Translations under genes and position numbers: made by a program
Shown: piece after piece, positions 1,464-63,415 of the stretch
Layout of the letters: every line of letters starts with the position of its first letter
How positions within the stretch are numbered: position 1 is the stretch's first letter
Notes under the pieces: model-generated
Database searches by the model: none
Seen by the model: the letters and a program-made list of their open reading frames with translations, nothing else
What the model was told of the DNA's origin: nothing
Origin: Candidatus Ryanbacteria bacterium RIFCSPHIGHO2_02_FULL_45_17b
GTDB lineage: Bacteria > Patescibacteriota > Minisyncoccia > Ryanbacterales > 2-02-FULL-48-12
NCBI GenBank assembly: GCA_001819815.1
Contig: MHNO01000009.1
Span: 71,734 to 135,733 of the forward strand
DNA length: 64,000 nucleotides
Direction of reading: 5' to 3'

Positions 1464-1565
1464 CTCCCTCCTGTAAGATCTGATTTAAACGTATACTAAC
1501 AAATAGAAAATTGCAATCAATAGTATCATGCGTTTGGCGACCTGACCGCCATTATAGACAACCGT

Positions 1566-1771
1566 GAATTACGAAACACACCCTCATCCGATGACCGCCA
1601 CACGAATTGATAATGAGTTGAACAAGATGTGTAACGTCTTGCGATGACCAAAATATGAAAAATAATAATAAAGAATTCAATATTGGGTCATCGCAAGACG
1701 TTATATTGTACTTGTGTATGCAAATTGATGGGAGGTCATCAGATGAGAGGAATACATGTGTTTCGTAATTC
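1566..1771. mobile_element. MITE-like inverted-repeat element, copy 1 (full length, with an internal 17-bp-stem hairpin)
   Basis: Terminal inverted repeats GAATTACGAAACACACCCTCATCCGATGACC ... GGTCATCAGATGAGAGGAATACATGTGTTTCGTAATTC. Internal perfect hairpin AACGTCTTGCGATGACC / GGTCATCGCAAGACGTT. Related copies lie at ~48700 and ~27116. The track ORF 1552..1773 lies inside it. Confidence 0.55.
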
Positions 1772-22697: not shown

Positions 22698-23037
22698 TAT
22701 CTATTCCCGCTTTTATCTCAAGATATTTAACTCGAGCCATTAAATCCTCAAATTCATCTTTATACACCAAATTACCACGTATTTCCGCAACGTCGGCTTC
22801 TATTCTGCCTAAGCGGGCATCCATGTGATCCATGCGCCCATCAAAACGATCCATGCGCTCTTCAAAACGATCCATGCGCTCTTCAAAGTGATCCATACGA
22901 CCGTCTAATGTATCCATACGGTCGTCTAGCGTATCCATACGACCATCCAATCGTTTTATATCATCTTTCGTTGCTGTATTCTCAAAACCCTTCGCAATCA
23001 TACGCGCAAGTTCTTCATTTGTGACTTTTTTTACCAT
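22687..23037 (-). CDS. heptad-repeat protein (7 tandem copies of D/E-x-R-M-D-x-F/L)
   Basis: MVKKVTNEELARMIAKGFENTATKDDIKRL, then DGRMDTL DDRMDTL DGRMDHF EERMDRF EERMDRF DGRMDHM DARLGRI. Start at the internal ATG at 23037. Confidence 0.5.
   Translation of the reverse strand: MVKKVTNEELARMIAKGFENTATKDDIKRLDGRMDTLDDRMDTLDGRMDHFEERMDRFEERMDRFDGRMDHMDARLGRIEADVAEIRGNLVYKDEFEDLMARVKYLEIKAGIDSGK
22801..22947. repeat. 21-bp tandem direct repeat, 7 copies, inside the heptad-repeat gene
   Basis: ATCCATGCGCTCTTCAAAACG-type units repeated head to tail (plus strand). Confidence 0.7.
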
Positions 23038-31625: not shown

Positions 31626-33943
<2,318 letters not shown>

Positions 33944-33966
33944 AACTCTAAACTCTGAAAACTAAT

Positions 33967-34635
33967 TTATGAACCGATAATCTCTGATTTTAATTTTTTT
34001 GCCTCTTCCATAAAAAAAGTTCTCCATTCCCGCGGATCGATTTTTATAATCATGCGGGGAAAATCCTGCACACTCTCCGCTTTTATAAACTGTGTGCCAA
34101 GTTGCAAGGGATCAATATGCCAATCGAATTTTATCTTTGCTTTCTTCATTAATTCATCAATCACATAGTTTTTTTCACGGCAAATGAGATAAAGATCTAT
34201 ATAATCACGCGCAGTTGTTCTTTGATAGATAGTAAAAAGCTTATTGACAGCGATATCAAGAATACTGTCTACTGATACACTATACTCGATTCTTCCTGTT
34301 TCGATGCGTGGAAAAGGATAATACGTAAACTCTGTTTTCAATACCTCATTGCCGAAATGGATAAAAAAGATATTCCTGTTGAAGCTCTGCTGAAAATCGA
34401 TGCTATTGGCGGACACTTTTTTTTGAATCGTCCGCACTGCCACTTCAAGCGCTCCGACATCGTTTATTTCTTGTTCAGAAAAAAAATCAAGGTCTTCCGA
34501 ATAGCGATGCTTCAGGTAAAATGCCGCCAAGGGCGTGCCGCCTGTAAGATAAAAACGTTCTGTAAACAAGGGAGACTCGCCAATCGCGGTTAAAAAAGTA
34601 ATCTGATTCTTAGTGAGAATATCCATCGATATCAA
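33967..34635 (-). CDS. nucleotidyltransferase AbiEii/AbiGii toxin family protein (DUF1814)
   Basis: YLTGGTPLAAFYLKHRYSEDLDFF matches the family GGTAL..R.S.DLDF motif. Confidence 0.7.
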   Translation of the reverse strand: MISMDILTKNQITFLTAIGESPLFTERFYLTGGTPLAAFYLKHRYSEDLDFFSEQEINDVGALEVAVRTIQKKVSANSIDFQQSFNRNIFFIHFGNEVLKTEFTYYPFPRIETGRIEYSVSVDSILDIAVNKLFTIYQRTTARDYIDLYLICREKNYVIDELMKKAKIKFDWHIDPLQLGTQFIKAESVQDFPRMIIKIDPREWRTFFMEEAKKLKSEIIGS

Positions 34636-34822
34636 GAGCCAATTCTAAATATCTTTTTCGTGGAGGATCGAGATGAAGCGTATCCCAGTATTTTCGCAAT
34701 TGAGCCTCGTTGATTTTCTCGCCGTTCAACCCAAAATTAATCAATTGCTCAAGCCGCCACTTTTCGTGCCCTTCCGGGTCCGATATTTCAAACGATTGTT
34801 CGTCTACAGACCAATTGTACAT
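34610..34822 (-). CDS. small protein overlapping the AbiEii start (possible cognate partner, not a recognisable AbiEi)
   Basis: 70-aa ORF overlapping the next gene by 26 nt. Role inferred from arrangement only. Confidence 0.3.
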   Translation of the reverse strand: MYNWSVDEQSFEISDPEGHEKWRLEQLINFGLNGEKINEAQLRKYWDTLHLDPPRKRYLELALDIDGYSH

Positions 34823-35024
34823 GCTCCCATACTAGCATGTTTCGCTTAATTTTTCCAGCTTTTCGCCTTCGTAATCTGCTCGCCTCGCCAAAGCTTCAGC
34901 AAGGACGGGTCCGATGTTCCTTACGCTCTTGATGCGTCACCACCAAGGAATCAGTAAAAAAAACAAAGCTAGTATCAGATAAAATCCGATCATAATATTT
35001 TCCAATATGTTGTTTTTTTTTGCA

Positions 35025-35696
35025 TTAATCCTTAATTATGGCAATATTTTTTAAGTTTACTATGGAAATTCCGTTCTTCGTTACTGAACCATATCCATGC
35101 AACTTAAACTCCAAGACGCCCACCTTTGCTCTAATATGTGCTATAGGTACTTCTACAGGCAGATACTCGTTCCTGCTAGATACATCTCCACGGAATGTAA
35201 ACAAGAGAGTGTCCTCGAAAGATATGGTTAACCAATCCCCATCTCCCGGTTCTAGAAAATTCATGTCGAACATCAAAAGATCTGCATTTGGATGTATTTG
35301 TATATCAGTTCTTATTCCACTCTCATCTCCCGTTTGAAGAGTCGACAATAGTAAATCCCCTTCAACAGAAGCAACTGGTTTTAATGCTTCAGAAGAAGAA
35401 AAGCTTCTCCATACTATCTTATTTGAGCTCTGATCCTGTGGTTCAGTAGGTTGCTTTGAATTACTAGTCTCTAGAGGTTTTGTATTTGTTTCATCATCGG
35501 CATCTGCCATCATTCCATTATTTTTCTCCTCCATCACATCTTTCATTTGCTCTGCCATGTCAATCGCGGATGTTTCTTCGGTTGTGGGAATAAATTTATC
35601 TTTTATCGGCAACTGTATCTTGAAAACGCCGATGCCTAAAATGGCAATAATGCCGACTACAATGAGAATACCTATAAGACCGAATCCTTTTTGCAT
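35025..35696 (-). CDS. prepilin-type N-terminal domain protein (pilin-like), variant 1
   Basis: MQKGFGLIGILIVVGIIAILGIGVF is a class III (type IV pilin-like) signal, divergent at +5 (Gly instead of Glu). The first ~55 aa are near-identical to the 36600..37649 protein. Confidence 0.6.
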   Translation of the reverse strand: MQKGFGLIGILIVVGIIAILGIGVFKIQLPIKDKFIPTTEETSAIDMAEQMKDVMEEKNNGMMADADDETNTKPLETSNSKQPTEPQDQSSNKIVWRSFSSSEALKPVASVEGDLLLSTLQTGDESGIRTDIQIHPNADLLMFDMNFLEPGDGDWLTISFEDTLLFTFRGDVSSRNEYLPVEVPIAHIRAKVGVLEFKLHGYGSVTKNGISIVNLKNIAIIKD

Positions 35697-35705
35697 GGTA
35701 TGTAA

Positions 35706-36095
35706 TTAGTTTTTAATCTTATCCAATACGAACTCTTTGATGTGTGTTGCAACTTCAAACGCTTTTTGGGCATCTTCCCGGCTAAATTCTATATAATCAT
35801 CCGCGTAACGCGTTTCTGTATAAAACTGATCCAAAAATACTGCGTCTTCATTTAATTGTTCAAATGAATTATCAATAGCAACGCATGCCTTTAGTAAGTT
35901 TTCAATAGCGTGAATCTTACGAACATTCTTTTTGTTATATGCAAGAAACCCTTTGAAATACTTTTCTGCCACTTGTTGCGCGTGAAAACAGATGGTATTT
36001 GGCACGCCATGTTCTTTAAGAAGAATTTCAATGGTTCCCATGTCGTCCTCACCACGCAAAAACCAATCATTTACATATTTAGATATCTCGCTCAT
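35706..36095 (-). CDS. HEPN domain protein (PF05168-type), partner of the adjacent MNT
   Basis: FHAQQVAEKYFKGFL ... HAIENLL ... FYTETRYADDY matches the HEPN consensus. 4-nt overlap with the MNT gene. Confidence 0.75.
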   Translation of the reverse strand: MSEISKYVNDWFLRGEDDMGTIEILLKEHGVPNTICFHAQQVAEKYFKGFLAYNKKNVRKIHAIENLLKACVAIDNSFEQLNEDAVFLDQFYTETRYADDYIEFSREDAQKAFEVATHIKEFVLDKIKN

Positions 36096-36469
36096 GCCGC
36101 CACAAGCTCAGCCGGTTCATGTAACAAAGAAATATGAAAGCCGGGATTCGTATAAAGCGCCTTTCCATTATGCACAATATCTTCGAGAAAAAGATTCCTG
36201 CTTTTATTGATACTCTCTTCTAATTCACGAGGTGTATAGACAAGAACATCTATCGGAACATCGGAAGGATACATCATACTCAAAACATCTCGCTGCCGTT
36301 CGATACGTGGCTTGTTACTTTCCATAACAACGAGTAAATCTATATCGCTATCTTCGTGTGGCTTTCCCCAAGCCCAAGAACCAAAGAGAATTATTTTTTC
36401 CGGCTGATACTCACGAACGATTTTATCCTTTATTCCATTGATTTTTTCCTCAATAACCGTTTTTTCCAT
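36092..36469 (-). CDS. minimal nucleotidyltransferase (MNT) domain protein
   Basis: ILFGSWAWGKPHEDSDIDLLVV is the Pol-beta-type GS...DxD motif. Confidence 0.8.
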   Translation of the reverse strand: MEKTVIEEKINGIKDKIVREYQPEKIILFGSWAWGKPHEDSDIDLLVVMESNKPRIERQRDVLSMMYPSDVPIDVLVYTPRELEESINKSRNLFLEDIVHNGKALYTNPGFHISLLHEPAELVAA

Positions 36470-36489
36470 ATGAGAATACTATGCTATTT

Positions 36490-36582
36490 TTATCCCAAAA
36501 GAGCAAGTTCCACAACCTTTGTTATCTGCCCGATATTTTTGACACTTCGGAGCCGTTGTTTGATTGTTTGGAGAGATTGCAT
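36490..36582 (-). repeat. direct-repeat copy of the atpG 5' end (copy B), fused into a 30-codon ORF
   Basis: ~83 bp, near-identical to atpG codons 1-27 (MQSLQTIKQRLRSVKNIGQITK) starting exactly at the ATG. The sequence upstream of the ATG is unrelated. Confidence 0.8.
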
Positions 36583-36599
36583 AAATTTACACGTAACTC

Positions 36600-37649
36600 C
36601 TATAAGGAGATCCTCATAAGAGTGCCGTCTGTATATAAAAGAGCGAAACTTGGAAAATAAATAAATTGATGCCAGCCACTTGCAACCCCATCCCACTTTA
36701 GAGCTTCATTTAATCTTGCTCTGAAATCGGAAAAAAGATAATTTCCAAAATTTTCTTTAACTAGACGGCTTGCTGTCTGCCGAACATACCAGCTATAAGT
36801 GTCTGTGCCTGCCTTGAATCCAAAATCAGAGTCTTTGGGTCGATTTGTTTCTATAAATGAGTCACTTTTTTTATCCCATACATACCACTTACCACTTGCA
36901 AAAGCTTCAGGCACAATATGGAATCCCAACCCCCGGGTACCTGGAAATTCTATGTATTCAGTCGTTGTATACACATGCGTGCCGTCGGTCAAAAATTGCC
37001 CCAAACCCTCACTACTATTGTGTTTTATAGAATAGAGTTTCATATTTTTTATATCAAACCGATACACGCCTAAAATACTTGGCTCAGAATACATTTCTCC
37101 TGATTCAGCAGCACCTATAAAGAAGTTTCCTTGGAAATAAACGGCATCAAATTGTTGAAATGCTTCTCTTTTGGGCAACTCGGGTATCTGTATGAGCTGG
37201 AAAGAAAATGTATTTGTATCAAGAAGGTACAAATCTCTACCTACCGCAAGTAATGCCGTATGATCATTATCCCCTGCAAGAACAAGAACTTGCTGTTCTG
37301 AAGACCACGCATTGGGAACCGCGAGAAAACCGGGTGCTTCAGTTCGTGCCCTCCCACCCAACCATTTTTCAGAAGGATCAGATAACATGAACTTAACAAG
37401 ATTATTTCCTGCAACAGAAGGTACATCGGTAACGTCATCAGTACCAACCGCCTGACTATTTTTCTCCTCCATTACGTCTTTCATCTGCTCTGCCATGTCA
37501 ATCGCAGATTTTTCTTCGTTCGTCGGAGTAAATTTATCTTTTATCGGCAACTGTATCTTGAAAACACCGATGCCTAAAATAGCGATAATACCGACTACAA
37601 TGAGTATTCCGATAAGACCGAATCCTTTTTGCATGGTATATTTTTGCAT
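36600..37649 (-). CDS. prepilin-type N-terminal domain protein (pilin-like), variant 2 with a different C-terminal domain
   Basis: Same N-terminal ~55 aa as variant 1 (the start may be the internal MQKGFGL). C-terminal 290 aa unrelated to variant 1. Confidence 0.6.
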   Translation of the reverse strand: MQKYTMQKGFGLIGILIVVGIIAILGIGVFKIQLPIKDKFTPTNEEKSAIDMAEQMKDVMEEKNSQAVGTDDVTDVPSVAGNNLVKFMLSDPSEKWLGGRARTEAPGFLAVPNAWSSEQQVLVLAGDNDHTALLAVGRDLYLLDTNTFSFQLIQIPELPKREAFQQFDAVYFQGNFFIGAAESGEMYSEPSILGVYRFDIKNMKLYSIKHNSSEGLGQFLTDGTHVYTTTEYIEFPGTRGLGFHIVPEAFASGKWYVWDKKSDSFIETNRPKDSDFGFKAGTDTYSWYVRQTASRLVKENFGNYLFSDFRARLNEALKWDGVASGWHQFIYFPSFALLYTDGTLMRISL

Positions 37650-37678
37650 GTGTTTATATTACCTTTGATAGAATAATT

Positions 37679-38149
37679 TTATTCATCTGAGGATACGGTA
37701 AAAATTGTCTTTTGCACATCGCGGGCATGCGGCGTATTACTACCAAGAAGCGCGCTTTGACGCATCGCTTCTTCAAAAATAACTGTATGGGTATCAAAAA
37801 TGCCTTCTCGCCCAAGTACACGCGGAGCATTCTCACTGTTGAGAAATGCAACAGGTAATCGGAAAGCGTATGATCCCATTTTTACTGGAATTTCGTGACG
37901 CCAAGCGCGAATGCTCTTCCCATCTATGCCAAATATACGCAAGAGCTTTCCTTTTGTAAGATCAATACCAAGAAGAGGCGCAATATTCTTCGGCAGTGCA
38001 GAAATGGTCGCCCCGGAATCAATCAACATCATTACAGGCAATTCTTCCTTTTGCGCGGTATGTAAGACAACCCTCGCCGCGGGGAAAATTGCGATCTGTC
38101 CCGATACTTCCATTGTTATCCCATATGGAAATCGAATGGAGTTAGACAT
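37679..38149 (-). CDS. retropepsin-like (clan AA) aspartic protease
   Basis: MMLIDSGATISALP contains the D-S-G-A catalytic motif in a hydrophobic context. Size ~150 aa, typical of single-lobe retropepsins. Confidence 0.6.
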   Translation of the reverse strand: MSNSIRFPYGITMEVSGQIAIFPAARVVLHTAQKEELPVMMLIDSGATISALPKNIAPLLGIDLTKGKLLRIFGIDGKSIRAWRHEIPVKMGSYAFRLPVAFLNSENAPRVLGREGIFDTHTVIFEEAMRQSALLGSNTPHARDVQKTIFTVSSDE

Positions 38150-38348
38150 GGTAAATGACCATTAAACTCTCCGGGACACGCAGAAATGTTACCTCCCGAA
38201 GCGGTTGCGCCGGCATTTTTTTCTTTAGAATTTTTATGACATCAGGAAGTGATTTGCCCGCAAAAATAACTTTACCATTCAAAATGGCGACCTCTTTACC
38301 GCCATACTTTTTTATGTCTATAGTGGGAATCTTTAATTTCATATTCAT
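38142..38348 (-). CDS. small protein (DUF5678-like) co-encoded with the retropepsin-like protease
   Basis: 68 aa, KKYGGKEVAILNGKVIFAGKSL. Overlaps the protease gene start by 8 nt. Family call tentative. Confidence 0.4.
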   Translation of the reverse strand: MNMKLKIPTIDIKKYGGKEVAILNGKVIFAGKSLPDVIKILKKKMPAQPLREVTFLRVPESLMVIYHV

Positions 38349-38589
38349 ATCATCATCTCTTACTCCTAAAGAGATTATTCTTCGCTTTTCCTATGTCTGT
38401 TTCACTAATCTGCACCCTTTTCCCAATGCCCTTAAGCGAAACAGGAGCTGTCGAAAATTGTTTTGATCCTTTTTTCAATTTCAAAAGTTCCTTTTCTAAC
38501 CCCCCCCAATTTTTCCACATATGTAGTTGTAGAATTTGCCATTGTAGTCATAAGCCCATAGTATGCTTTTCTCACATAGTTTTCAAGTA

Positions 38590-38674
38590 TCACTACCAAT
38601 TCCATGGCTTTTGTTATCTGCCCAATATTTTTGACACTTCGGAGCCGATGTTTAATTGTTTGAAGGGATTGCAT
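38590..38674 (-). repeat. direct-repeat copy of the atpG 5' end (copy C), fused to 53 unrelated codons
   Basis: ~85 bp matching atpG from the ATG through MELV (codon 27). ORF 38432..38674 then diverges. Confidence 0.8.
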
Positions 38675-38714
38675 AATATTTGATTGTTAGGTACTGAAAT
38701 CTAGAAACTAGAAA

Positions 38715-48682: not shown

Positions 48683-48699
48683 GGTTTTTATAATACTTT

Positions 48700-48820
48700 G
48701 AATTACGAAACACATTCTCATCTGATGACCGCCCCGCGAATTGATAGCGAGTCGAACGAGATATGTTAAAAAATGAAGGTACTTGCGTGTGCAAATTGAG
48801 GGGAGGTCATCAGATGAGGG
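48700..48820. mobile_element. MITE-like element, copy 2 (lacks the internal hairpin and the outer right arm)
   Basis: GAATTACGAAACACATTCTCATCTGATGACCGCC ... GGGAGGTCATCAGATGAGGG. Lies between the pepA stop and the PEBP start. Confidence 0.5.
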
Positions 48821-57224: not shown

Positions 57225-57410
57225 TTATAATATAAAAATTTCCAATAAAAATTGGAACAAAATATCTAACGTTCCTAAAAATATTGCCACCACGACTGAA
57301 ATACCAATAACCGCGAGTGTGTGCTTTGTGGTATCCTGCCGCGAAGGCCACACGACTCGCTTAAGTTCGGTTTTTGTTTCAGAAAAATAGGTTGCAAGTT
57401 TTGTGAACAT
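57225..57410 (-). CDS. secE: preprotein translocase subunit SecE
   Basis: 61 aa with a single C-terminal TM helix, immediately upstream of nusG (conserved secE-nusG-rplK order). Confidence 0.8.
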   Translation of the reverse strand: MFTKLATYFSETKTELKRVVWPSRQDTTKHTLAVIGISVVVAIFLGTLDILFQFLLEIFIL

Positions 57411-57419
57411 AGTTTTGAG

Positions 57420-57450
57420 CTTTTTTAAAAGGCCCGCAGGCCCTTATACG
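57420..57450 (-). terminator. intrinsic terminator upstream of secE (end of the preceding transcription unit)
   Basis: GGGCC-TGC-GGGCC hairpin followed by TTTTAAAAAAG on the minus strand. Confidence 0.4.
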
Positions 57451-57503
57451 GTCATACTACTATACGCCTGGAGGAAAGTCAAATTCTTAGAAAAATAGTT
57501 CTT

Positions 57504-58523
57504 TTAGGGAAACAGCTTGTTAAAATGTTCTTTTATAACCTTCGAGGCAAACTGATCAGGAATATCTTCCGTATTGATAGAGTGATAAGCCCGCTCTTGT
57601 GCTTCTACAATTGATTCTCTCGTAGGATACCCTTTCTGGGAAAGAATTTTTTCATTTGTAGTATACCATGTATCTAATTTCCCTCCAGCATCAAGTGCAA
57701 GCGCAAGCCGCCCGGGATTCCAATTTCCAAAAGGCAACGCCTCCATTTCAATCTTCCTTTGCTCTCTATACTTATCCCCATCAGGTTCTATAAGATAATG
57801 CCGCGCATGGCCTAATTCATGGAGAAAAATAAAAGCTGCTAATATTTCAGGTGTCACCTTATCTGGATCAATTCCTGCTTTCTCAGCACTAATCTGCGCA
57901 GACACACGGCGCTCTTTCATAAGATTACGGTAATGTTCTATCCCTAAACGAGCATTCACTGTCACTGAAGGTCTCTGCCTGAAAGTTTGCGATTGATGAC
58001 GAGCAAAACCTCCTGTTTTCTTTAACACTGGCTCGCGTTCTGGATCTCCCAAAATAATATCCACGTCTCGCAGTTCAGGAAAATTTCCGGCTGCCGCTTC
58101 ATATGCGCGTGCAAATATTTTTCCCACTTCACCTGCGCTCTCTAGAACTTGAACTACCCGACCGCCTGCAATAGCCTCGCCATCATAAAATAGTATTGTT
58201 CCCCCCTCTTTACCCCACAATGTTCCTTCTTCAAAAATTTTTATTGTCTTACCTTCATCATCTTTTATAACCGCTTGATAGGAGTCTTTTTCTCTGTCTC
58301 GCAGAATAGTAAAATGCTCTCCTGGCTGTAATCGAAGATGGCCGCCTTCAGGTGTTTTTACGGCAAGCTCTTGGCTCGTTCCTTGTGTAACTCGCGTCTC
58401 CCATAATAAATAACGTGGTACTGTTCCTCCTGGTGTAAGTGGTTTTAACTTCTCTATGCCTTCCATCTCTTTTGACGGTTCAGATGTAGATTCAACAAAT
58501 TGTTTTGGCCCTTCAAATCCCAT
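57504..58523 (-). CDS. hypothetical protein starting MGFEG, with an HExxH motif (HELGHARHY)
   Basis: 339 aa. Starts 27 nt after a gyrB-tail repeat copy, like the paralogous-start gene at 60313..60996. Confidence 0.5.
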   Translation of the reverse strand: MGFEGPKQFVESTSEPSKEMEGIEKLKPLTPGGTVPRYLLWETRVTQGTSQELAVKTPEGGHLRLQPGEHFTILRDREKDSYQAVIKDDEGKTIKIFEEGTLWGKEGGTILFYDGEAIAGGRVVQVLESAGEVGKIFARAYEAAAGNFPELRDVDIILGDPEREPVLKKTGGFARHQSQTFRQRPSVTVNARLGIEHYRNLMKERRVSAQISAEKAGIDPDKVTPEILAAFIFLHELGHARHYLIEPDGDKYREQRKIEMEALPFGNWNPGRLALALDAGGKLDTWYTTNEKILSQKGYPTRESIVEAQERAYHSINTEDIPDQFASKVIKEHFNKLFP

Positions 58524-58550
58524 AGGTTTTTGTCCTTACATTTGTGTTCA

Positions 58551-58592
58551 TTACATATCCAAATTCTTCACCAATTTAGCGTGTGTTTGAAT
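58551..58592. repeat. direct-repeat copy (copy 3) of the gyrB 3' end
   Basis: Minus-strand reading gives IQTHAKLVKNLDM*, against the gyrB C-terminus IQTHAKAVKNLDI*. Confidence 0.7.
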
Positions 58593-58599
58593 GAGTACA

Positions 58600-59001
58600 C
58601 TACAATAACGTTGCCCAACCATACTGTTTGATGTGTTGGTATAACTTTCTATCTGCTGTCACAAATGGGCAATGAAGTTGCCTCGCAAGATACACATAAA
58701 GAGCGTCATATACTGTTATATTATGACTGTGAGCAAGAGAATAGACCTCTTTTAATTCCTTCAGGGAAAAGTTAAATGCTTGCAGTTCCATACCAGTCAA
58801 AATGTCCATTACAGCAAGTCCGCCTTCTTCCGTAATACCCGACTTGTGCCGTAACACATTAGCCACTTCGTAATATAAAAGATCAGGTACTCCTACTACA
58901 TCTTCTCCAGAAACATGTTGACGCTCAAAAACACGGGCTTCCTCTGAACCAGCTTCTTCCTGCAACCACTTAATGACAACTGACGCATCAAGAACAATCA
59001 T
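58600..59001 (-). CDS. vapC: PIN-domain ribonuclease toxin (VapC-like)
   Basis: MIVLDASVVIKWL ... YDALYVYLA ... FVTADRK contains the PIN acidic quartet. Confidence 0.8.
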   Translation of the reverse strand: MIVLDASVVIKWLQEEAGSEEARVFERQHVSGEDVVGVPDLLYYEVANVLRHKSGITEEGGLAVMDILTGMELQAFNFSLKELKEVYSLAHSHNITVYDALYVYLARQLHCPFVTADRKLYQHIKQYGWATLL

Positions 59002-59166
59002 GTAGACTGTTTTCCGTCACGCAAATTACGTATCGCTTTTACCGCATTCCATCCTTTAAGTTTTCTTGCATATTTCTTGCGCCATGCCTCAAGCGAACGA
59101 TGAGCATCCATGCGCTGTAAAGATGTAGTGCCTTTATTTTTTTTTCTCGTGGTTACCGTTGCCATG
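58998..59166 (-). CDS. putative VapB-like antitoxin (56 aa; below the ORF-track cutoff)
   Basis: MATVTTRKKNKGTTSLQRMDAHRSLEAWRKKYARKLKGWNAVKAIRNLRDGKQST. The stop TGA overlaps the vapC ATG (ATGA). Coordinates are +/- a few nt. Confidence 0.45.
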
Positions 59167-59196
59167 ACAACATTCTACCATGAGACGTGATATTCA

Positions 59197-59841
59197 TCAA
59201 TCACCCTCCATTCGTAACATCTCCTCAAAAATATGCCTCCGTTGCACAGTTTCCCTCTCCACCAATTGTACCAAACCTGGTACGGTACCGCTATATTCCG
59301 AGACAAGTTTTTCCGCCCAACCTACCATGAAGTCATGATGTTGCTTCAACATACCGTCTGTTTGCGCATGGCGATATTCTTCGTGTGTTGCCTCTTTATG
59401 AGAATTGACCGCAAGTTGTGGATGGTTATCGGCACCATGCTTATTCTTCCATGCTTCCCGCTCATCAACCCATGGACCAGTTTCTAAAACTTCCAGACAC
59501 TCATGGGTCAAAATATATGGCTGGTGCTCCGGCGGACACGCTTCCTTATTTATAATTGGCCGTGACATTACCCCGCCAAAACCAAAAAACTCAGACATAG
59601 GAACGGGATCATCCCTTCCTTCATCCTTTGCACGCTTTGCAAATTGCTCACGAGAAAGAAACACGGCGCGCGCTCGTATGCGATCCAAGAGATCTTTCTT
59701 CAATTCAAGATTGGATCGATCCCGCTGATACACCTTTATTCCTTCCTCAAGACTAACTGTTTCTCGTGTTTCCGCATCAAATGACTTTTCAATGGACATA
59801 TAACTTTCTCTTAAAACAATCTTGGAAACATTTAATTTCAT
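59197..59841 (-). CDS. hypothetical protein
   Basis: 214-aa ORF, charged/His-rich. No family. Confidence 0.4.
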   Translation of the reverse strand: MKLNVSKIVLRESYMSIEKSFDAETRETVSLEEGIKVYQRDRSNLELKKDLLDRIRARAVFLSREQFAKRAKDEGRDDPVPMSEFFGFGGVMSRPIINKEACPPEHQPYILTHECLEVLETGPWVDEREAWKNKHGADNHPQLAVNSHKEATHEEYRHAQTDGMLKQHHDFMVGWAEKLVSEYSGTVPGLVQLVERETVQRRHIFEEMLRMEGD

Positions 59842-59888
59842 TTCTTATGTTATATACCCTGCGCTTTATGTTAGCTGATAAACCTAAA

Positions 59889-59935
59889 TTATATATCCAA
59901 ATTCTTCACTGCTTTTGCCGCTACTGCCATAGAAA
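59889..59935. repeat. direct-repeat copy (copy 2) of the gyrB 3' end, fused to the end of a 60-aa ORF
   Basis: ORF 59889..60071 ends AAKAVKNLDI*, identical to the last 9 residues of GyrB. Confidence 0.7.
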
Positions 59936-60045
59936 GCTTTTTCTCAATAGATTTTGGAAATTTACGCACTTCTCTATCGGCATGAATATAGCGATTATAA
60001 GCCACGCGCTCATTTTTTGTAAGCTTCTTATTAATGAAGGCATCG

Positions 60046-60309
60046 TCAGCAATAATATATTCTGGAAACACAATAGAAACCGATCTCCGGCTTCAATCCA
60101 GCGATCGCATGCAAAAGATCAGGGTCTTCTTCAGTTGCTTTCCGAAAAACAGAACTTTTTTCTTGCGCTTCCAAAAACCTTTTAACACCCATTTTAGCCT
60201 GTTCTGTAGTGGTGGGAAAATATTCCTGCACCATTGGGCCTTGTTCAAAATTTGAAGCTTTATTTTCAACTTCAATTGTGGGCTTTTCGATGGCCATACG
60301 TCTATCCAA
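60046..60309 (-). CDS. hypothetical protein
   Basis: 87-aa ORF in the cassette. Weak. Confidence 0.3.
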   Translation of the reverse strand: MDRRMAIEKPTIEVENKASNFEQGPMVQEYFPTTTEQAKMGVKRFLEAQEKSSVFRKATEEDPDLLHAIAGLKPEIGFYCVSRIYYC

Positions 60310-60312
60310 AAG

Positions 60313-60996
60313 CTAGAAACCTAACAGAGCTATTCGCCATTTCCGCAAACGCTGCTGACGAACATGCTCCGATCCTAATCGGTTTGGCGCTTGCGATACC
60401 CTAGGATCCCTTATCTCAATAAACTTTTCTTTCAAAAATGTGCGTGCTTCTTCGGGTGTTAACATGGTCTTAGAAAAGTCCAGCGGTTCCCCTGTATACT
60501 TCCAACTGCCTTCTGTATCGCCCTTAAACCTACTCCTTAGTTGAATCCACTCATTTACAGAAAAACGCTTCGTTTCCCCCTCGGACCTGTTCAGCGCATA
60601 CAATTCGATCTGCGACAATCGTTCCTCCACTTGTCTCCCACCACCCATGTCCACTTTCACTATCGCTTCACCAGTTTGCTGATCAAACCCCGAAAGCACT
60701 CGTGCCTCCTTCTCGCCCTCTTCACTTAAAATCTCTACATTGTCCCCCGCCTTGAGTTGCTTAGCCTGCTCCTCTCGAAATTCGCCTGTTTCAAGGTTAA
60801 ATCCTGCTTTCTCCGCTGCCTTACGCGCATCAGGAGTCGCTCGTAACAATTCAAGATCCTCTGCTATCTCTTCCTGAGACAAAGGATCGTTTCTTATTTC
60901 TAATTTTGCAGGAGCAGGGTCTATAAACGGTTTTTTCTTCGGCACACCCTCTTCGGGTGGTTGTGGATAATTATGAATTTGTCCTTCAAATCCCAT
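60313..60996 (-). CDS. hypothetical protein starting MGFEG (second cassette-leading gene)
   Basis: 227 aa. The start ATGGGATTTGAAGG lies 27 nt after the real gyrB stop. Confidence 0.45.
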   Translation of the reverse strand: MGFEGQIHNYPQPPEEGVPKKKPFIDPAPAKLEIRNDPLSQEEIAEDLELLRATPDARKAAEKAGFNLETGEFREEQAKQLKAGDNVEILSEEGEKEARVLSGFDQQTGEAIVKVDMGGGRQVEERLSQIELYALNRSEGETKRFSVNEWIQLRSRFKGDTEGSWKYTGEPLDFSKTMLTPEEARTFLKEKFIEIRDPRVSQAPNRLGSEHVRQQRLRKWRIALLGF

Positions 60997-61023
60997 ATAT
61001 TTTATAAGTTAGTTAATAATCTT

Positions 61024-63078
61024 CTATATGTCCAAATTCTTTACTGCTTTTGCGTGTGTTTGAATAAATGATTTTCGGGGCGCAACTTCGTCGCCCATGA
61101 GAATATCAAAAATATGGTCGGCTTCCGCCGCATCCCGAATGCTTACGCGCAATAACAACCTCTGCGCGGGATCCATAGTAGTTTCCCAAAGCTGATCCGG
61201 ATTCATCTCACCCAACCCTTTATACCGTTGGATATTAAATCCTTTATATGTCTCTCCAATACCCGATTCTCCGGATTGCTCTCCCTTAGATTCTGTGTCC
61301 ATATCTTCTTCTTGTGTTTTATGTTTTACGTTTTGCGCTTCGCGTTTTTCCTGCATCTCTTTTAATATGATTTCTTTTTGAGCATCCGAATACGCATAGC
61401 GAAACTCCCGCCCACGGCTTATTTTATAAAGCGGCGGCTGGGCTATATATAAGTATCCCGCTTCCACAACCGGCCGGTAATACCGATAAAACAATGTTAG
61501 CAACAATGTGCGAATATGGGCGCCATCCACGTCTGCATCGGTCATAATTACGATTTTGTGATAGCGAATTTTTTCCAAGCTAAACTCCTCCGCAATAGCG
61601 GCCCCAAGCGCGATAACAAGCGATTTAATTTCTTTGGACGCAAGCATTTTATCCAGCCGCGCCCGTTCCACGTTTAATATCTTTCCTCGTAGAGGCAAAA
61701 TTGCCTGCGTGCGCCGATCGCGAGCACCCTTGGCACTACCACCGGCGCTATCTCCCTCCACAATGAAGATTTCCGATTCTTCCGCGCTCTTTGACTGACA
61801 ATCGGCAAGTTTTCCGGGGAGCGTCATTCCTTCTAAAATACCTTTGCGTAAAATAGTATCTTTGGCGGCTTTGGCGGCTTTGCGCGCTTTGGAAGCAAGA
61901 ATAACTTTACCCGCGATAGCACGCGCATCCGCGGGGTTTTCTTCCAAATACGAGGAAAACAATTCCGCAAAACAAGATTCCACCGCGGTACGCGCCTCGG
62001 GATTTCCTAACTTTGATTTCGTTTGTCCTTCAAACTGTGTTTCTCTTAATTTTACCGAGACAACAACCGTAAGTCCTTCACGCACATCTTCCCCAATCAA
62101 ATTTTCTTCATCTTGTTTTAAGTAACTATTTTTTCGGGAATAATCATTTAACACACGCGTGAGCGCGGTGCGAAAGCCCGTAATATGCATGCCTCCCTCG
62201 GGGGTGTGTATATTATTCGCAAATCCCATTTCGCGCGCCTGCAAGTCATCAGCATACTGCAACGCGATTTCAATTTGAATATCGTTTACTGTTTTCTCCG
62301 CGTAAAAAACCGTGTCGTGAATGACGGTGATATCACGATTCAAATGCTTTACAAACGACTTGATGCCGCCTTCAAAATAGAACGCGTATTTGTGCTCGTT
62401 TGCGGCATCGCTTTTTCGTTGATCATGAAATGAAATACGAACACCGCGCGTAAGATATGCCTGTTGGCGAAGTTTATCAAGTACGCGCTTTTCGTTAAAT
62501 TCAATCTCGCTGAATATCTGCGGATCAGGCTCAAACAGAATAGTGGTGCCATTCGCGCCGCACTTACCGACTTTTTTTACATCTGCTTTTGGTTTTCCGC
62601 GCTCGTATTCCTGGGCATATAAACTCCCCTCTTTGCATACTTCTGCGCGCATATACACGGAAAGCGCGTTTACCACCGACGCTCCCACGCCATGCAAACC
62701 GCCCGATACTTTATATGCTTCTCCGCCAAATTTTCCGCCCGCGTGAAGCGTGGTCATAATAGTTTCGAGAGCAGATTTTTTTGTCTGTTTATGAATATCT
62801 ACCGGAATACCGCGGCCATCATCAGACACGCGAACTTGGTTTTTTGGAAGAAGAACAATTTCAATATTCTTTGCGTGTCCCGCCATGGCTTCATCTATTG
62901 AATTGTCCACTATCTCCCAAATGAGATGATGCAATCCATCCGGTCCGGTAGAGCCAATATACATGCCCGGGCGCTTGCGTACCGGCTCTAGCCCTTCCAA
63001 CACAAAAATATCCTTCGCGCCGTAGTCGGAAGATGAACTTGCTTCAGATTTTTTCTCTTTGGATTCTTTTTTAGCCAT
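61024..63078 (-). CDS. gyrB: DNA gyrase subunit B
   Basis: GHKL ATPase, transducer and TOPRIM domains (EGDSAGG) and a C-terminal tail. 684 aa. Confidence 0.95.
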   Translation of the reverse strand: MAKKESKEKKSEASSSSDYGAKDIFVLEGLEPVRKRPGMYIGSTGPDGLHHLIWEIVDNSIDEAMAGHAKNIEIVLLPKNQVRVSDDGRGIPVDIHKQTKKSALETIMTTLHAGGKFGGEAYKVSGGLHGVGASVVNALSVYMRAEVCKEGSLYAQEYERGKPKADVKKVGKCGANGTTILFEPDPQIFSEIEFNEKRVLDKLRQQAYLTRGVRISFHDQRKSDAANEHKYAFYFEGGIKSFVKHLNRDITVIHDTVFYAEKTVNDIQIEIALQYADDLQAREMGFANNIHTPEGGMHITGFRTALTRVLNDYSRKNSYLKQDEENLIGEDVREGLTVVVSVKLRETQFEGQTKSKLGNPEARTAVESCFAELFSSYLEENPADARAIAGKVILASKARKAAKAAKDTILRKGILEGMTLPGKLADCQSKSAEESEIFIVEGDSAGGSAKGARDRRTQAILPLRGKILNVERARLDKMLASKEIKSLVIALGAAIAEEFSLEKIRYHKIVIMTDADVDGAHIRTLLLTLFYRYYRPVVEAGYLYIAQPPLYKISRGREFRYAYSDAQKEIILKEMQEKREAQNVKHKTQEEDMDTESKGEQSGESGIGETYKGFNIQRYKGLGEMNPDQLWETTMDPAQRLLLRVSIRDAAEADHIFDILMGDEVAPRKSFIQTHAKAVKNLDI

Positions 63079-63295
63079 GAGTAGTTGTATTGTTTGTATT
63101 TGCTTGCTTCGTCAGTACAAAAATATAAAAAATTTCAAGCAAGCCCATTGTGTTTATAAGTAAAAGCGCAACAAACCATCCGCGCTCATTTCGGCGGGCC
63201 GCCTTCCAAAGTGCTACTGCTTTCCATGGCAACGTCCATAAAGCAATAAGCAAAAATACCCACCAAAACTGTTTAACAAAAATTTCCACATACAT
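63071..63295 (-). CDS. small 2-TM membrane protein
   Basis: MYVEIFVKQFWWVFLLIALWTLPWKAVALWKAARRNERGWFVALLLINTMGLLEIFYIFVL. The start is probably the internal Met. Confidence 0.4.
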   Translation of the reverse strand: MYVEIFVKQFWWVFLLIALWTLPWKAVALWKAARRNERGWFVALLLINTMGLLEIFYIFVLTKQANTNNTTTHG

Positions 63296-63415
63296 AGATA
63301 TAAATATTTTATCACCTTTTCTAAACACCAGCACTATTGACAAATAGCACACGTTGTGCATAATAGAGACAAATCTACAAGGAGGATGAGGTATTCACCC
63401 TAAAGGAGGTTCGTT

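What the first reader, a model, noticed from the sequence alone, without database searches (positions are those of the whole stretch)
57478..61075. Second tandem cassette array downstream of gyrB, punctuated by copies of the gyrB 3' end; two cassette genes start MGFEG exactly 27 nt after the repeat
The last ~30-45 bp of gyrB (encoding ...IQTHAKAVKNLDI*) recur at 59889-59935 (AAKAVKNLDI*), at 58551-58592 (IQTHAKLVKNLDM*), and in a decayed form at ~57479-57491. Between the copies lie separate gene blocks: MGFEG protein 2 plus small ORFs, then a hypothetical protein with VapB-VapC, then the MGFEG HExxH protein. The two MGFEG genes are otherwise dissimilar. Both begin with ATGGGATTTGAAGG exactly 27 nt past the stop of a gyrB-tail copy, although the 27-nt spacers themselves differ. 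This suggests the recombination or attachment unit spans the gyrB tail, a fixed-length spacer and the first five codons. It is the 3'-end counterpart of the atpG-5' array. Two independent gene-end-targeted arrays in 64 kb suggest a dedicated, undescribed integration mechanism rather than chance.
Basis: seen in the sequence. Interest (0 to 1): 0.8.

Follow-up and report, generated by a model that had tools for sequence, protein, structure and literature searches.

The report
Gene islets stacked behind gyrB
Three small accessory-gene islets (two hypothetical genes, a VapBC toxin-antitoxin pair, a zincin-like protein) lie between gyrB and secE in a Candidatus Ryanbacteria genome, each ending in a leftover copy of the last 30-47 bases of gyrB; the same scar recurs behind gyrB in many related ultra-small bacteria and fits a known, recombinase-free way of gaining genes.

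Summary
Window 57.4-61.1 kb (all genes on the minus strand) carries the gyrB 3' end plus two clear pseudo-copies (59889-59921; 58551-58597). A third, decayed copy sits at the secE promoter; it is supported only by position. Two unrelated genes start with ATGGGATTTGAAGG exactly 27 nt after a tail. The array is 100% identical in at least 8 independent assemblies.

The dedicated-mechanism reading is only partly supported. In relatives, pheST-gyrB-[variable]-secE-nusG is conserved and the gap content differs every time. At least 12 other Parcubacteria contigs have same-strand gyrB-tail duplicates flanking small inserts, mostly toxin-antitoxin pairs. The duplicated length runs from about 20 to 116 nt, and the right edge is usually the stop codon. 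No integrase, transposase or inverted repeat lies in any insert or in the parts of the 64-kb window that were scanned.

Tail copy 3 matches other lineages' gyrB tails (92-95%) better than its own (83%). The 27-nt-plus-MGFEG unit is best read as the conserved start of the ancestral gyrB neighbour; versions occur in three relatives.

Best fit: 'insertion with long target duplication' (Nobusato 2000; Furuta 2010), here as repeated, homology-anchored stacking at a hotspot. This is a new variant of a known kind, of moderate interest.

The parts
61024..63078 (-). gyrB (684 aa), the anchor gene. Its last ~47 nt (61024-61070) are the reference 'tail'.
   Evidence: ORF. Pfam HATPase_c/DNA_gyraseB/Toprim/DNA_gyraseB_C. 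The C-terminus FIQTHAKxVKNLDI is conserved across Parcubacteria.
60997..61023 (-). 27-nt spacer 1 between the gyrB stop and MGFEG gene 1
   Evidence: Counted. Homologous to the spacer before the MGIES gene of relative L110 (87.5% over 40 nt including the start codon region).
60313..60996 (-). MGFEG protein 1 (227 aa), a hypothetical protein. Its C-terminal ~130 aa belong to a small Parcubacteria family (P0010-P0019).
   Evidence: No Pfam, NCBIfam or PADLOC family.
59922..60309 (-). Two overlapping ORFs (87 aa at 60046-60309; 60 aa at 59889-60071). Together they look like one frameshifted gene whose reading frame runs into tail copy 2.
   Evidence: Relative L236 has a homologous region (79% nt over 155 nt) and an ORF that also ends ...AKAVKNFDI*.
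59889..59921 (-). gyrB-tail copy 2 (AKAVKNLDI*, about 31-33 nt; about 90% identical to the resident tail)
59197..59799 (-). Hypothetical protein (200 aa from MSIEK; 214 aa from the upstream ATG at 59841). No known family.
   Evidence: Gene callers start it at MSIEK.
58600..59200 (-). VapBC-type toxin-antitoxin cassette: promoter-like TTGATG-17-TAGAAT (59200-59172), 55-aa antitoxin-like gene (58998-59165) and PIN-domain toxin (58600-59001).
   Evidence: PIN at 1.5e-12. Promoter scan. The same cassette, 82-83% nt identical, lies directly after the gyrB stop in L110 and L234. More distant versions are in L235 and L236.
58551..58597 (-). gyrB-tail copy 3 (IQTHAKLVKNLDM*, 42-47 nt). It starts 2-7 nt after the VapC stop, depending on whether the 3-nt-gapped extension is counted.
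   Evidence: It is 83% identical to its own gyrB tail but 92.5% to the L110 tail and 94.7% to the L234 tail. L234/P0022 carry the same Leu variant.
58524..58550 (-). 27-nt spacer 2 (not alignable with spacer 1)
57504..58523 (-). MGFEG protein 2 (339 aa) with an HELGH motif. The C-terminal 220 aa form a zincin-like metallohydrolase fold.
57454..57491 (-). Candidate decayed tail copy 4 (AAGAATTTGAC) fused to the secE promoter-like site TTGACT-17-TAGTAT
   Evidence: Not significant alone. Promoter scan. L235 and L236 have a clear tail copy fused to the same -35 box at the same position.
57225..57410 (-). secE, the first gene of the conserved secE-nusG-rplK-secDF block that bounds the hotspot
   Evidence: Synteny in relatives.

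Best explanation
The gyrB-secE gap is a lineage-wide insertion hotspot. The array is a stack of small accessory-gene islets gained one after another by host recombination, not by a cassette-encoded recombinase.

Proposed course of each gain: incoming DNA from a related cell is anchored by homology to the highly conserved 3' end of gyrB. The DNA could be either a linear piece carrying that cell's gyrB end plus whatever lay behind it, or a circle formed by recombination between two tail copies. After integration the functional gyrB tail sits in front of the new islet, and the previous tail is left behind it as a 20-116-nt pseudo-copy. This is 'insertion with long target duplication'.

Repeating the process pushes older islets toward secE. 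That gives: gyrB | MGFEG1 + frameshifted gene | tail 2 | 200-aa gene + VapBC | tail 3 | MGFEG2 | tail-4 remnant | secE.

The two MGFEG starts, each 27 nt after a tail, are two allelic copies of the ancestral junction 'gyrB end - short spacer - first codons of the neighbouring gene'. Each was imported or retained together with its own tail.

Shown: the repeats, the hotspot, the recurrence in other lineages, the absence of mobility genes, and the foreign affinity of tail copy 3.
Inferred: the direction of growth, DNA uptake by transformation, and the exact joint chemistry.
For: (1) Three same-strand tail copies bound three blocks of unrelated genes.

(2) Relatives keep pheST-gyrB-[gap]-secE-nusG-rplK-secDF, but the gap holds different genes in each of L110, L111, L113, L120, L189, L234 and L235.

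(3) Tail duplicates flank small inserts in many other contigs. They are L120, L128, L172, L189, L197, L203, L205, L210, L218 and L230 from the tail-pattern scan, plus L234, L235 and L236 found through gyrB and VapC homologs. In the control count, 8 same-strand nearby copies occurred in 7 of 102 non-redundant gyrB ends, against 0 opposite-strand copies in 678 kb.

(4) The duplicated length varies from about 20 to 116 nt, and the right edge is at or within a few nt of the stop codon in most cases. That is what is expected if homology simply stops where gene conservation stops. In L235 and L236 the duplication seems to run about 10 nt further, into the secE -35 box.

(5) No integrase or transposase lies in any inter-tail segment or in the scanned parts of the window, and there are no inverted repeats in the array. 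The tail is absent from viral contigs.

(6) Copy 3 is closer to the gyrB tails of other lineages (92.5-94.7%) than to the resident one (83%), and it keeps the frame and a residue variant (Leu) seen in real GyrB proteins. Codon differences between tails and copies elsewhere are mostly synonymous: 27 to 13 overall, and about 11 to 6 (hand count) outside the search pattern. In L203 the copy uses different codons from the resident tail.

(7) The resident gyrB looks mosaic. Its 5' part is closest to L110 and its last ~600 nt are closest to L234.

(8) The same VapBC cassette lies directly behind gyrB in L110 and L234, and L234, L235 and L236 have it flanked by tail copies.

(9) Identity to the resident tail falls with distance: about 90% for copy 2, 83% for copy 3, then only a remnant. 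This fits 'newest next to gyrB'.

(10) Other targets are duplicated in the same way: 82 nt of the atpG 5' end (three copies in this window) and about 60 nt of the gyrB promoter in L120.

(11) The phenomenon is described in the literature for restriction-modification genes, without mobility genes and mostly in naturally competent species (PMC2853133). Patescibacteria are reported to have recombination genes and competence machinery (PMC12455944).
Against: - No 'empty site' or intermediate state of this particular genome exists in the data. All assemblies are clonal, so no event was caught in the act.
- The VapBC cassette ends 3-7 nt after the VapC stop in four lineages, yet is followed by tail copies of different lengths. 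Random fragment ends would not give such a constant cassette end. This fits re-integration of excised circles, or a targeted mechanism, better than one-sided illegitimate joining.
- Homologies of 20-30 nt are at the lower limit of what RecA-type recombination is known to use (my own knowledge).
- The excess of synonymous differences is partly forced by the search pattern. It could also arise if the functional tail was later replaced by allelic recombination.
- The model does not explain why three unrelated gene bodies (MGFEG1, MGFEG2, the L113 relic) keep the same first ~14 nt.
Confidence: 0.55

Rival explanations
1. Site-specific accretion by a recombinase acting in trans. On this view the gyrB 3' end is an attB site. 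The cassettes are integrase-less, cis-mobilizable elements that carry an attP-like tail. They are inserted in tandem by a tyrosine or serine recombinase encoded elsewhere in the genome or on a helper element, as with CIME/ICE accretion at the 3' end of fda in streptococci or IMEX elements at dif.
For: - All copies share a core, GTGAAGAATTTGGATAT, that is conserved at the nucleotide level across lineages.
- Inserts begin right after the stop codon in most independent cases.
- The VapBC cassette has nearly constant ends in four lineages.
- Insertions seem to occur at pseudo-tails as well: MGFEG2 lies between tail 3 and the tail-4 remnant.
Against: - No recombinase was found in the inter-tail segments examined, in the flanks shown, or in the scanned parts of the 64-kb window. 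The only rve transposase seen (L210) lies outside the repeat-bounded segment.
- Repeat length ranges from about 20 to 116 nt, even for the same cassette type.
- Unrelated sequences are duplicated in the same manner: the atpG 5' end and the gyrB promoter.
- No phage or plasmid contig carries the tail.
- There is no sign of excision polymorphism.
Confidence: 0.15
2. A machine recognises the gyrB tail and inserts at a fixed distance. The functional attachment unit is then tail + 27-nt spacer + the first five codons (ATGGGATTTGAAGG).
For: - The spacing is exactly 27 nt twice in the window, with a 14/14-nt identical start on unrelated proteins.
- L113 has ATGGGGATTGAGAGG 26 nt after gyrB, followed after ~20 nt by unrelated sequence; the ORF is only 25 aa.
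- The variable region therefore starts at about the same point in at least three cases.
Against: - No transposase or TnsD-like genes were found, and there are no terminal inverted repeats or short target duplications.
- Most tail-flanked inserts in other lineages begin directly at the stop codon and have no MG start.
- In L120 the spacing is 36 nt, and in L110 the start is no longer next to a tail.
- Tail copy 2 is not followed by an MGFEG gene.
- No shared RNA or DNA structure links tail and start.
- The HExxH family's own N-termini (MSVESQKNF, MPVESQQNP) already resemble MGFEGPKQF.
Confidence: 0.06
3. Chance similarity of AT-rich codons, or a metagenome mis-assembly that strings strain variants together.
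For: The fourth copy is short enough to be chance. The sequence comes from metagenomes.
Against: - Copies of 33-47 nt on the same strand: 3 found against 0.32 expected.
- The reading frame is preserved.
- The array is identical in at least 8 assemblies made by different pipelines.
- The repeats are far shorter than the assembly k-mer.
- The same scar appears in many unrelated contigs.
Confidence: 0.02

Closest known systems
[quoted passage not shown] 2000, Gene 259:99; Furuta, Abe & Kobayashi 2010, NAR, PMC2853133)
   Same: - Small gene units inserted with direct duplication of more than 30 bp of the target.
- No integrase or transposase.
- Variable repeat length.
- Repeats that can overlap the 3' end of a gene.
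- Mostly in naturally competent bacteria.
- A proposed life cycle that uses the repeats for amplification and release.
   Different: - The known cases are restriction-modification systems in Proteobacteria, Thermus, cyanobacteria and similar groups, and are single events.
- Here the cargo is toxin-antitoxin pairs and hypothetical genes in Parcubacteria.
- The same essential-gene end is hit repeatedly in many lineages.
- The events are stacked into arrays.
- The copies look allelic, that is, from different lineages.
Minimal mobile elements / core-gene-flanked integration hotspots exchanged by homologous recombination (Neisseria MMEs; 'TA islets' in Photorhabdus, PMC13617665)
   Same: A pair of conserved flanking genes with a different small cassette in each strain. 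There are no mobility genes, and spread is by recombination in the flanks (for TA islets; MMEs from my own knowledge).
   Different: Those models give clean replacement or insertion without duplication of the flank. Here each gain leaves a pseudo-copy of the gene end, and cassettes add up instead of replacing one another.
Tandem accretion of integrative elements and CIMEs at the 3' end of a protein gene or tRNA gene
   Same: Arrays of elements separated by partial copies of the target gene's 3' end. The functional gene end is restored at each insertion.
   Different: Those need a site-specific integrase and have att sites with a fixed crossover. None was found here, the repeat length varies, and the units are only 1.1-1.3 kb.
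Integron cassette arrays
   Same: A tandem array of small, mostly one- to three-gene cassettes, including toxin-antitoxin pairs, next to a fixed site.
   Different: There is no IntI and no attI, and there are no attC-like imperfect palindromes. The punctuation is a direct repeat of a housekeeping gene end.

Membership tests
Insertion with long target duplication (criteria of Furuta et al. 2010, PMC2853133) | The insert is flanked by direct repeats longer than 30 bp that correspond to a sequence present once at the target. | tested here: met
   Copy 3 is 42-47 nt and copy 2 is 31-33 nt. Relatives L111 and L113 have a single tail at gyrB. Other lineages show repeats of about 20-116 nt.
Insertion with long target duplication (criteria of Furuta et al. 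2010, PMC2853133) | No other mobile-element genes (integrase, transposase, phage genes) in or beside the insert; insert shorter than 20 kb. | tested here: met
   Pfam, NCBIfam and PADLOC scans of the cassette proteins and of window ORFs, plus precomputed Pfam for the rest, show none. The blocks are 1.1-1.3 kb.
Insertion with long target duplication (criteria of Furuta et al. 2010, PMC2853133) | An 'empty-site' genome of the same species aligns on both sides of the insert. | tested here: inconclusive
   All contigs of this strain carry the full array. Only more distant relatives show simpler states: L235 has gyrB-VapBC-tail-secE and L113 has gyrB-short gap-secE.
Site-specific integrative element / CIME accretion | A tyrosine or serine recombinase in at least some elements of the array or its relatives. 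| tested here: not met
   None was found in the window or in the inter-tail segments examined in other contigs. Whole genomes could not be checked.
Site-specific integrative element / CIME accretion | att sites of constant extent with a common crossover core. | tested here: not met
   The left edge of the repeat varies from about 20 to 116 nt before the stop. It also differs after the same VapBC cassette: about 47 nt here and about 20 nt in L234 and L235.
Integron | intI gene, attI site, and cassettes ending in attC imperfect inverted repeats. | tested here: not met
   No integrase domain was found. The only inverted repeat in 57400-61100 is a weak one inside vapC.
Tn7-like attachment-site transposition | TnsABC/D-type genes, terminal inverted repeats, a 5-bp target duplication, and insertion at a fixed distance from the recognised gene end. 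| tested here: not met
   There are no such genes and no terminal repeats. The fixed 26-27-nt distance is seen only in this clade, and it sits beside cases where the insert starts at the stop codon.
VapBC type II toxin-antitoxin module (the cargo of block 2) | A PIN-domain toxin preceded by a small, overlapping antitoxin gene. | tested here: met
   PIN at 1.5e-12. The 55-aa gene overlaps it by 4 nt. The gene pair is conserved in L110, L234, L235 and L236. The antitoxin fold and the module's activity were not tested.

The most novel reading that the evidence does not exclude
Parcubacteria may host a so far unrecognised class of minimal 'gene-end hitchhiker' cassettes, mostly toxin-antitoxin pairs with their own promoter. 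These would use the last (or first) 20-100 nt of highly conserved essential genes (gyrB, atpG) as a portable attachment sequence. The proposed cycle is: excise as circles through the flanking repeats, spread by natural transformation, and re-insert precisely at the stop or start codon of the same gene in other lineages. This would run either purely on host recombination or with an unidentified trans-acting enzyme. The conserved 14-nt gene start at a fixed 26-27 nt from the tail would then be a second, functional recombination boundary.
Probability: 0.15. Interest if true: 0.8.

Novelty: new variant of a known kind. Interest (0 to 1): 0.5.

Why it matters
Candidate Phyla Radiation bacteria have tiny genomes, few recognisable mobile elements and no genetics. 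How they gain accessory and defence-type genes is therefore poorly understood.

This locus, and at least 12 similar ones found here, show that small cassettes pile up at the ends of very conserved essential genes. They leave diagnostic pseudo-copies of the gene end, and no recombinase is in sight.

That gives a simple sequence signature (gene-end duplicates) for finding recently acquired DNA in such genomes. It also gives a relative time order of acquisitions within an array. And it extends 'insertion with long target duplication' from restriction-modification genes to toxin-antitoxin modules in a new phylum.

If the cassettes really cycle through circles and transformation, this would be a minimal form of gene mobility that needs no dedicated enzyme.

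Tried and rejected
It returned only relatives at 66% identity or less, none with tail copies, so it was uninformative.
- Exact-protein look-ups for GyrB, MGFEG2 and AtpG found only the same clonal strain.
- HExxH homologs P0003, P0004 and P0007 are not next to gyrB.
- I looked for homology between the two MGFEG proteins and found none (BLASTP; hhalign).
- I looked for an RNA structure linking tail, spacer and start, and found nothing shared. Rfam found nothing in the window.
- The viral-contig scan for the tail gave 0 hits.
- I first read ATGGTGCTTAAAGG, 26 nt after the L234 tail copy, as another MG start. I withdrew this because it lies inside a ~170-nt insert bounded by the inverted repeat CCCCGTTAG / CTAACGGGG.
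- Tandem duplication followed by divergence is rejected because the blocks are unrelated.
- A polymorphic-toxin style set of 'orphan C-terminal modules' is rejected. The copies are only 10-15 codons, they end in stop codons, and the blocks have their own starts and, for VapBC, a promoter-like site.
- The DUF5678/Asp-protease cassette of the atpG array is not nucleotide-homologous to those upstream of gyrB in L113 and L120.
- Literature searches for toxin-antitoxin cassettes with gene-end duplication found no direct description.
- Pandey & Gerdes 2005 could not be read under the PMC id I tried.

Full report
**What is there.** All genes in 54-64 kb of the window are on the minus strand. Reading in that direction gives the following layout:
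- gyrB (63078->61024)
- a 27-nt spacer
- a 227-aa protein starting MGFEG (60996->60313)
- two overlapping small ORFs (60309->59889)
- a 200/214-aa hypothetical protein (59841/59799->59197)
- a 55-aa gene overlapping a PIN-domain gene (59165->58600)
- a 27-nt spacer
- a 339-aa protein starting MGFEG with an HELGH motif (58523->57504)
- secE-nusG-rplK-secD-secF

The organism is a Candidatus Ryanbacteria bacterium (Parcubacteria) from the Rifle aquifer. A source names the identical PIN protein that way, and the nearest named GyrB at 75% identity is also from Ryanbacteria.

**Check of the observation.**
- The repeat finder reports the three tail copies as family D6.
- The core 17-mer GTGAAGAATTTGGATAT occurs three times at 3 or fewer mismatches, against 0.32 expected, always on the minus strand.
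- Copy 3 (58597->58551) reads IQTHAKLVKNLDM*. It starts 2-7 nt after the VapC stop, depending on whether the gapped extension is counted.
- Copy 2 (59921->59889) reads AKAVKNLDI*. It is in frame with the 60-aa ORF before it.
- ATGGGATTTGAAGG occurs exactly twice in the window. Each copy is 27 nt after a tail stop codon, and the two spacers are no more alike than random AT-rich sequence.
- The two MGFEG proteins are unrelated.
- The fourth, 'decayed' copy (AAGAATTTGAC, 57491->57479) cannot be told from chance on its own, because the 9-mer occurs nine times in the window. It also overlaps the -35 box of a secE promoter-like site. In relatives L235 and L236, however, a clear tail copy is fused to the same -35 box at the same place (GGATATTTGACTTC). 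I therefore accept it as a probable remnant.
- The 4.1-kb region is 100% identical in contigs from JGI, ENA/MEGAHIT, the ANAN16 assembly and Logan, so it is not a mis-assembly.

**The site is a hotspot in the whole lineage.** Close relatives were found through GyrB homologs and their contigs. All keep pheS-pheT-gyrB-[gap]-secE-nusG-rplK-secDF. The gap differs every time:
- L110 (gyrB 89% identical): a VapB homolog and a truncated VapC directly after the gyrB stop, then a 185-aa protein starting MGIES (a homolog of MGFEG1's C-terminal part), then a 264-aa protein.
- L111: two genes on the other strand.
- L113: a 0.35-kb gap.
- L234: VapB-VapC, then a ~20-nt tail copy.
- L235: VapBC flanked by the gyrB tail and a ~21-nt copy.

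**The tail scar is recurrent.** One scan of metagenome contigs with the tail pattern returned 120 gyrB ends, about 75 of them from CPR bacteria. Same-strand duplicates of the tail lie 54-1123 nt downstream in L120, L128, L172, L189/L195, L197, L203, L205, L210, L218 and L230.

In a controlled count, each locus's own 18-mer was searched at 2 or fewer mismatches. There were 8 nearby same-strand copies in 7 of 102 non-redundant loci, and none on the opposite strand in 678 kb.

The inserts between the tails include:
- a nucleotidyltransferase + HepT/HEPN-type pair in L120 (Pfam); the pairs in L128 and L197 look like the same type by sequence inspection only
- a 162-aa protein in L172 that looks NYN-like by eye
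- an 83-aa ORF (L210/L230)
- a 305-aa hypothetical protein (L189)
- almost nothing (54-80 nt in L205 and L218)

The duplicated segment is about 22 to 116 nt long. Its right edge is the stop codon, give or take 0-3 nt, in nearly all cases, while its left edge varies. In L235 and L236 the duplication appears to extend about 10 nt further, into the secE -35 box.

**No mobility machinery.**
- Pfam, NCBIfam and PADLOC scans of the cassette proteins found no integrase, transposase or resolvase.
- Pfam scans of ORFs in window 1-23 kb found none, and neither did the precomputed Pfam labels for 23-44 and 47.5-64 kb. Window 44-47.5 kb was not scanned.
- Six proteins from relatives' inserts that I scanned have none either. 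The other inter-tail ORFs were checked by eye only.
- The one rve transposase (L210) lies after the distal tail copy, outside the repeat-bounded segment.
- The array has no inverted repeats of the attC or transposon-end type.
- No viral contig carries the tail.

**The copies look like gene ends of other lineages.**
- Copy 3 is 83% identical to the resident tail but 92.5% to the tail of L110 and 94.7% to that of L234. Its Leu at the variable position (HAK-L-VKNLD) is the residue found in the GyrB of L234/P0022.
- Own tail against copy 3 differs at six codons (8 nt in all). Four are silent (three synonymous changes plus the stop codon) and two change a residue, one of them at the naturally variable position.
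- In other contigs the codon differences between tail and copy are 27 synonymous to 13 non-synonymous. This is inflated by my search pattern. Counting only positions outside the pattern, it is about 11 to 6 (hand count).
- In L128 a block of ~50 identical nt is flanked by mostly synonymous differences on both sides. In L203 the resident tail uses different codons from the copy.
- The resident gyrB itself looks mosaic: closest to L110 over the first 1.4 kb, and closest to L234 over the last 0.6 kb.
- Together these findings say that DNA from related lineages has recombined at this gene end. The copies are not just drifting in-situ duplicates.

**The MGFEG puzzle.** The unit 'tail - short spacer - ATGGGRWTTGARRG' is found in the close relatives without any array:
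- L113 has ATGGGGATTGAGAGG 26 nt after gyrB. It now opens only a 25-codon relic, and the real 85-aa gene is in another frame.
- L110 has a spacer homologous to spacer 1, followed by ATGGGAATTGAAAG.
- L120 has ATGGGGCCAGAAAG 36 nt after a tail copy that follows an inserted nucleotidyltransferase/HEPN pair.

Some members of the MGFEG1 family start MGIES, MGFNS or MGNHF. HExxH homologs start MSVESQKNF or MPVESQQNP, which already resembles MGFEGPKQF.

My reading is that gyrB in this clade was ancestrally followed, ~27 nt later, by a fast-evolving gene with this start. Each 'tail + 27 nt + MGFEG' in the window is then one allelic copy of that junction. This explains the equal spacing without making the spacer or the five codons part of a recombination site.

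It does not explain why unrelated gene bodies keep the same 14 nt. A second case is the start ATG-[TG]CC-AT[CT]-GAA-AA, shared by the 87-aa ORF, the 200-aa gene and L110's 264-aa gene, whose bodies show no similarity. That remains open.

[quoted passage not shown] Kobayashi's group described it for restriction-modification genes. Its features are direct repeats of 30 to several hundred bp of the target, no mobility genes, some repeats overlapping gene 3' ends, occurrence mostly in naturally competent species, and a proposed cycle of insertion, amplification through the repeats, and release (PMC2853133). Patescibacteria are reported to keep homologous-recombination and DNA-uptake genes (PMC12455944). 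Toxin-antitoxin islets are thought to spread by recombination in flanking core genes (PMC13617665).

I propose that each gain was anchored by homology in the conserved gyrB end and left the previous tail behind the new block. There are two sub-variants:
(a) A linear donor piece, 'gyrB end + its downstream genes', joined at its far end by an illegitimate or short-homology joint inside the recipient's tail.
(b) A circle, formed by recombination between two tail copies in a donor, that re-integrates by a single crossover in a tail.

Variant (b) better explains two things. The VapBC cassette ends 3-7 nt after the VapC stop in four lineages, although the following tail copies differ in length. And blocks seem to have entered at pseudo-tails too.

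The order of identity to the resident tail is copy 2 at ~90%, copy 3 at 83%, then only a remnant. This fits growth from the gyrB side, with the oldest block next to secE.

Relative L236 supports nesting. It has an ORF homologous to the window's 60-aa ORF that also ends in a tail, then 43 nt, a 65-nt tail copy, VapBC, a third tail copy and secE. It has no 200-aa gene and no MGFEG2.

**Generality beyond gyrB.** The same window has three copies of the first 82 nt of atpG, bounding blocks with DUF5678 + aspartyl-protease, nucleotidyltransferase + HEPN, AbiEii and pilin-like genes. L120 has a ~60-nt duplication of the gyrB promoter around a DUF5678-like + aspartyl-protease pair. Different target sequences, one pattern: this argues for a general host-recombination process rather than one site-specific enzyme.

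**Rivals.**
- A trans-acting site-specific recombinase cannot be excluded without complete genomes. The precise start of inserts at the stop codon and the constant cassette ends are the best arguments for it. The variable repeat length, the unrelated targets and the lack of any recombinase argue against it.
- A Tn7-like fixed-distance model has no support beyond the 26-27-nt spacing.
- Chance and mis-assembly are excluded for copies 2 and 3.

**Cargo.**
- Block 2 carries a VapBC-type module: PIN domain with a promoter-like site at its left end that is conserved in relatives.
- MGFEG1, the 200-aa protein and the frameshifted gene have no assignable function.

**Verdict.** The proposed special attachment unit is probably shared ancestry of a gene start. 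The process belongs to a known, though little-studied, kind of recombinase-free insertion, seen here in a new phylum, with new cargo and in stacked form. Interest is moderate (0.5). The open points are the constant cassette ends, the exact placement at stop and start codons, and the conserved gene starts on unrelated bodies.

Noticed in passing
window 33864-38676 (minus strand): There are three copies of the first ~82 nt of atpG: at 33864-33945 (the real gene start), 36503-36584 and 38595-38676, at 89-94% identity. They bound blocks inserted between atpA and atpG. The blocks hold DUF5678 + aspartyl-protease-like genes, a 349-aa pilin-like gene, a nucleotidyltransferase + HEPN pair, a 223-aa pilin-like gene, and a 70-aa gene + AbiEii. 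Differences between the copies are largely synonymous.
   Followed up: partly
window 35519-35701 and 37457-37639: A 183-nt repeat at 91% identity corresponds to the shared N-terminal ~60 residues (MQKGFGLIGILIVVGIIAILG..., prepilin-like by eye) of two otherwise different proteins in the atpG array.
   Followed up: no
window 28604-31555: A 983-aa protein lies between atpD and atpC, inside the ATP synthase operon. It has internal ~330-nt periodic repeats (families D4, D7, D8) and weak PG_binding/CARDB hits.
   Followed up: no
window 1552-1747 and 48686-48818: Two stretches 47 kb apart share ~80-93% identity over about 200 nt (families D5 and D13). There is no Rfam match and no tRNA check was done. 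Their nature is unknown.
   Followed up: no
window 22806-22952: Six tandem 21-nt units (GATCCATGCGC.C.TCAAAAC) lie inside a 164-aa coiled-coil protein with a weak DUF7310 hit.
   Followed up: no
window 60295, 59799; L110 13085: Three genes with no detectable similarity in their bodies share their first 8-9 codons at the DNA level (M[SA]IEK[PS]..., up to 24/28 nt). This is a second case, besides MGFEG, of a conserved gene start on different bodies in this hotspot.
   Followed up: partly
L120 (reverse-complement orientation) 295-353 and 1448-1510: About 60 nt of the gyrB promoter region (TTGTCAATAGTGCTGG...GGTAAAATATAT) is duplicated around a DUF5678-like + aspartyl-protease-like pair inserted upstream of gyrB. 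L113 has a related pair at the same place.
   Followed up: partly
L113 10001-13381; P0024, P0025: GyrB of two close relatives carries an intein (Pfam Intein_splicing; proteins of 1119-1126 aa). The window's GyrB has none.
   Followed up: no
L234 3640-3760: A ~170-nt insert bounded by the inverted repeat CCCCGTTAG...CTAACGGGG (MITE-like) separates the tail copy from the secE promoter. It appears to split the sequence TTTGAC|TTC.
   Followed up: no
L210 4398-4600; L230, L171: Directly after the gyrB stop there is a perfect 17-nt inverted repeat (AGCATGTCTGAAAACCC ... GGGTTTTCAGACATGCT) about 150 nt apart. Its first arm is conserved in three contigs of that lineage.
   Followed up: no
window 63071-63361: A 96-aa DUF5652 membrane protein gene sits between the gyrB promoter-like region and gyrB and overlaps the gyrB start by 8 nt. 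It is absent at that position in L113 and L120.
   Followed up: no
window 61024-63078 compared with L110, L234: The resident gyrB looks mosaic. Windows 1-1400 are closest to L110 (83-92%), and windows 1426-2025 are closest to L234 (85-89%, against 61-82% for L110). This suggests recombination inside gyrB.
   Followed up: partly
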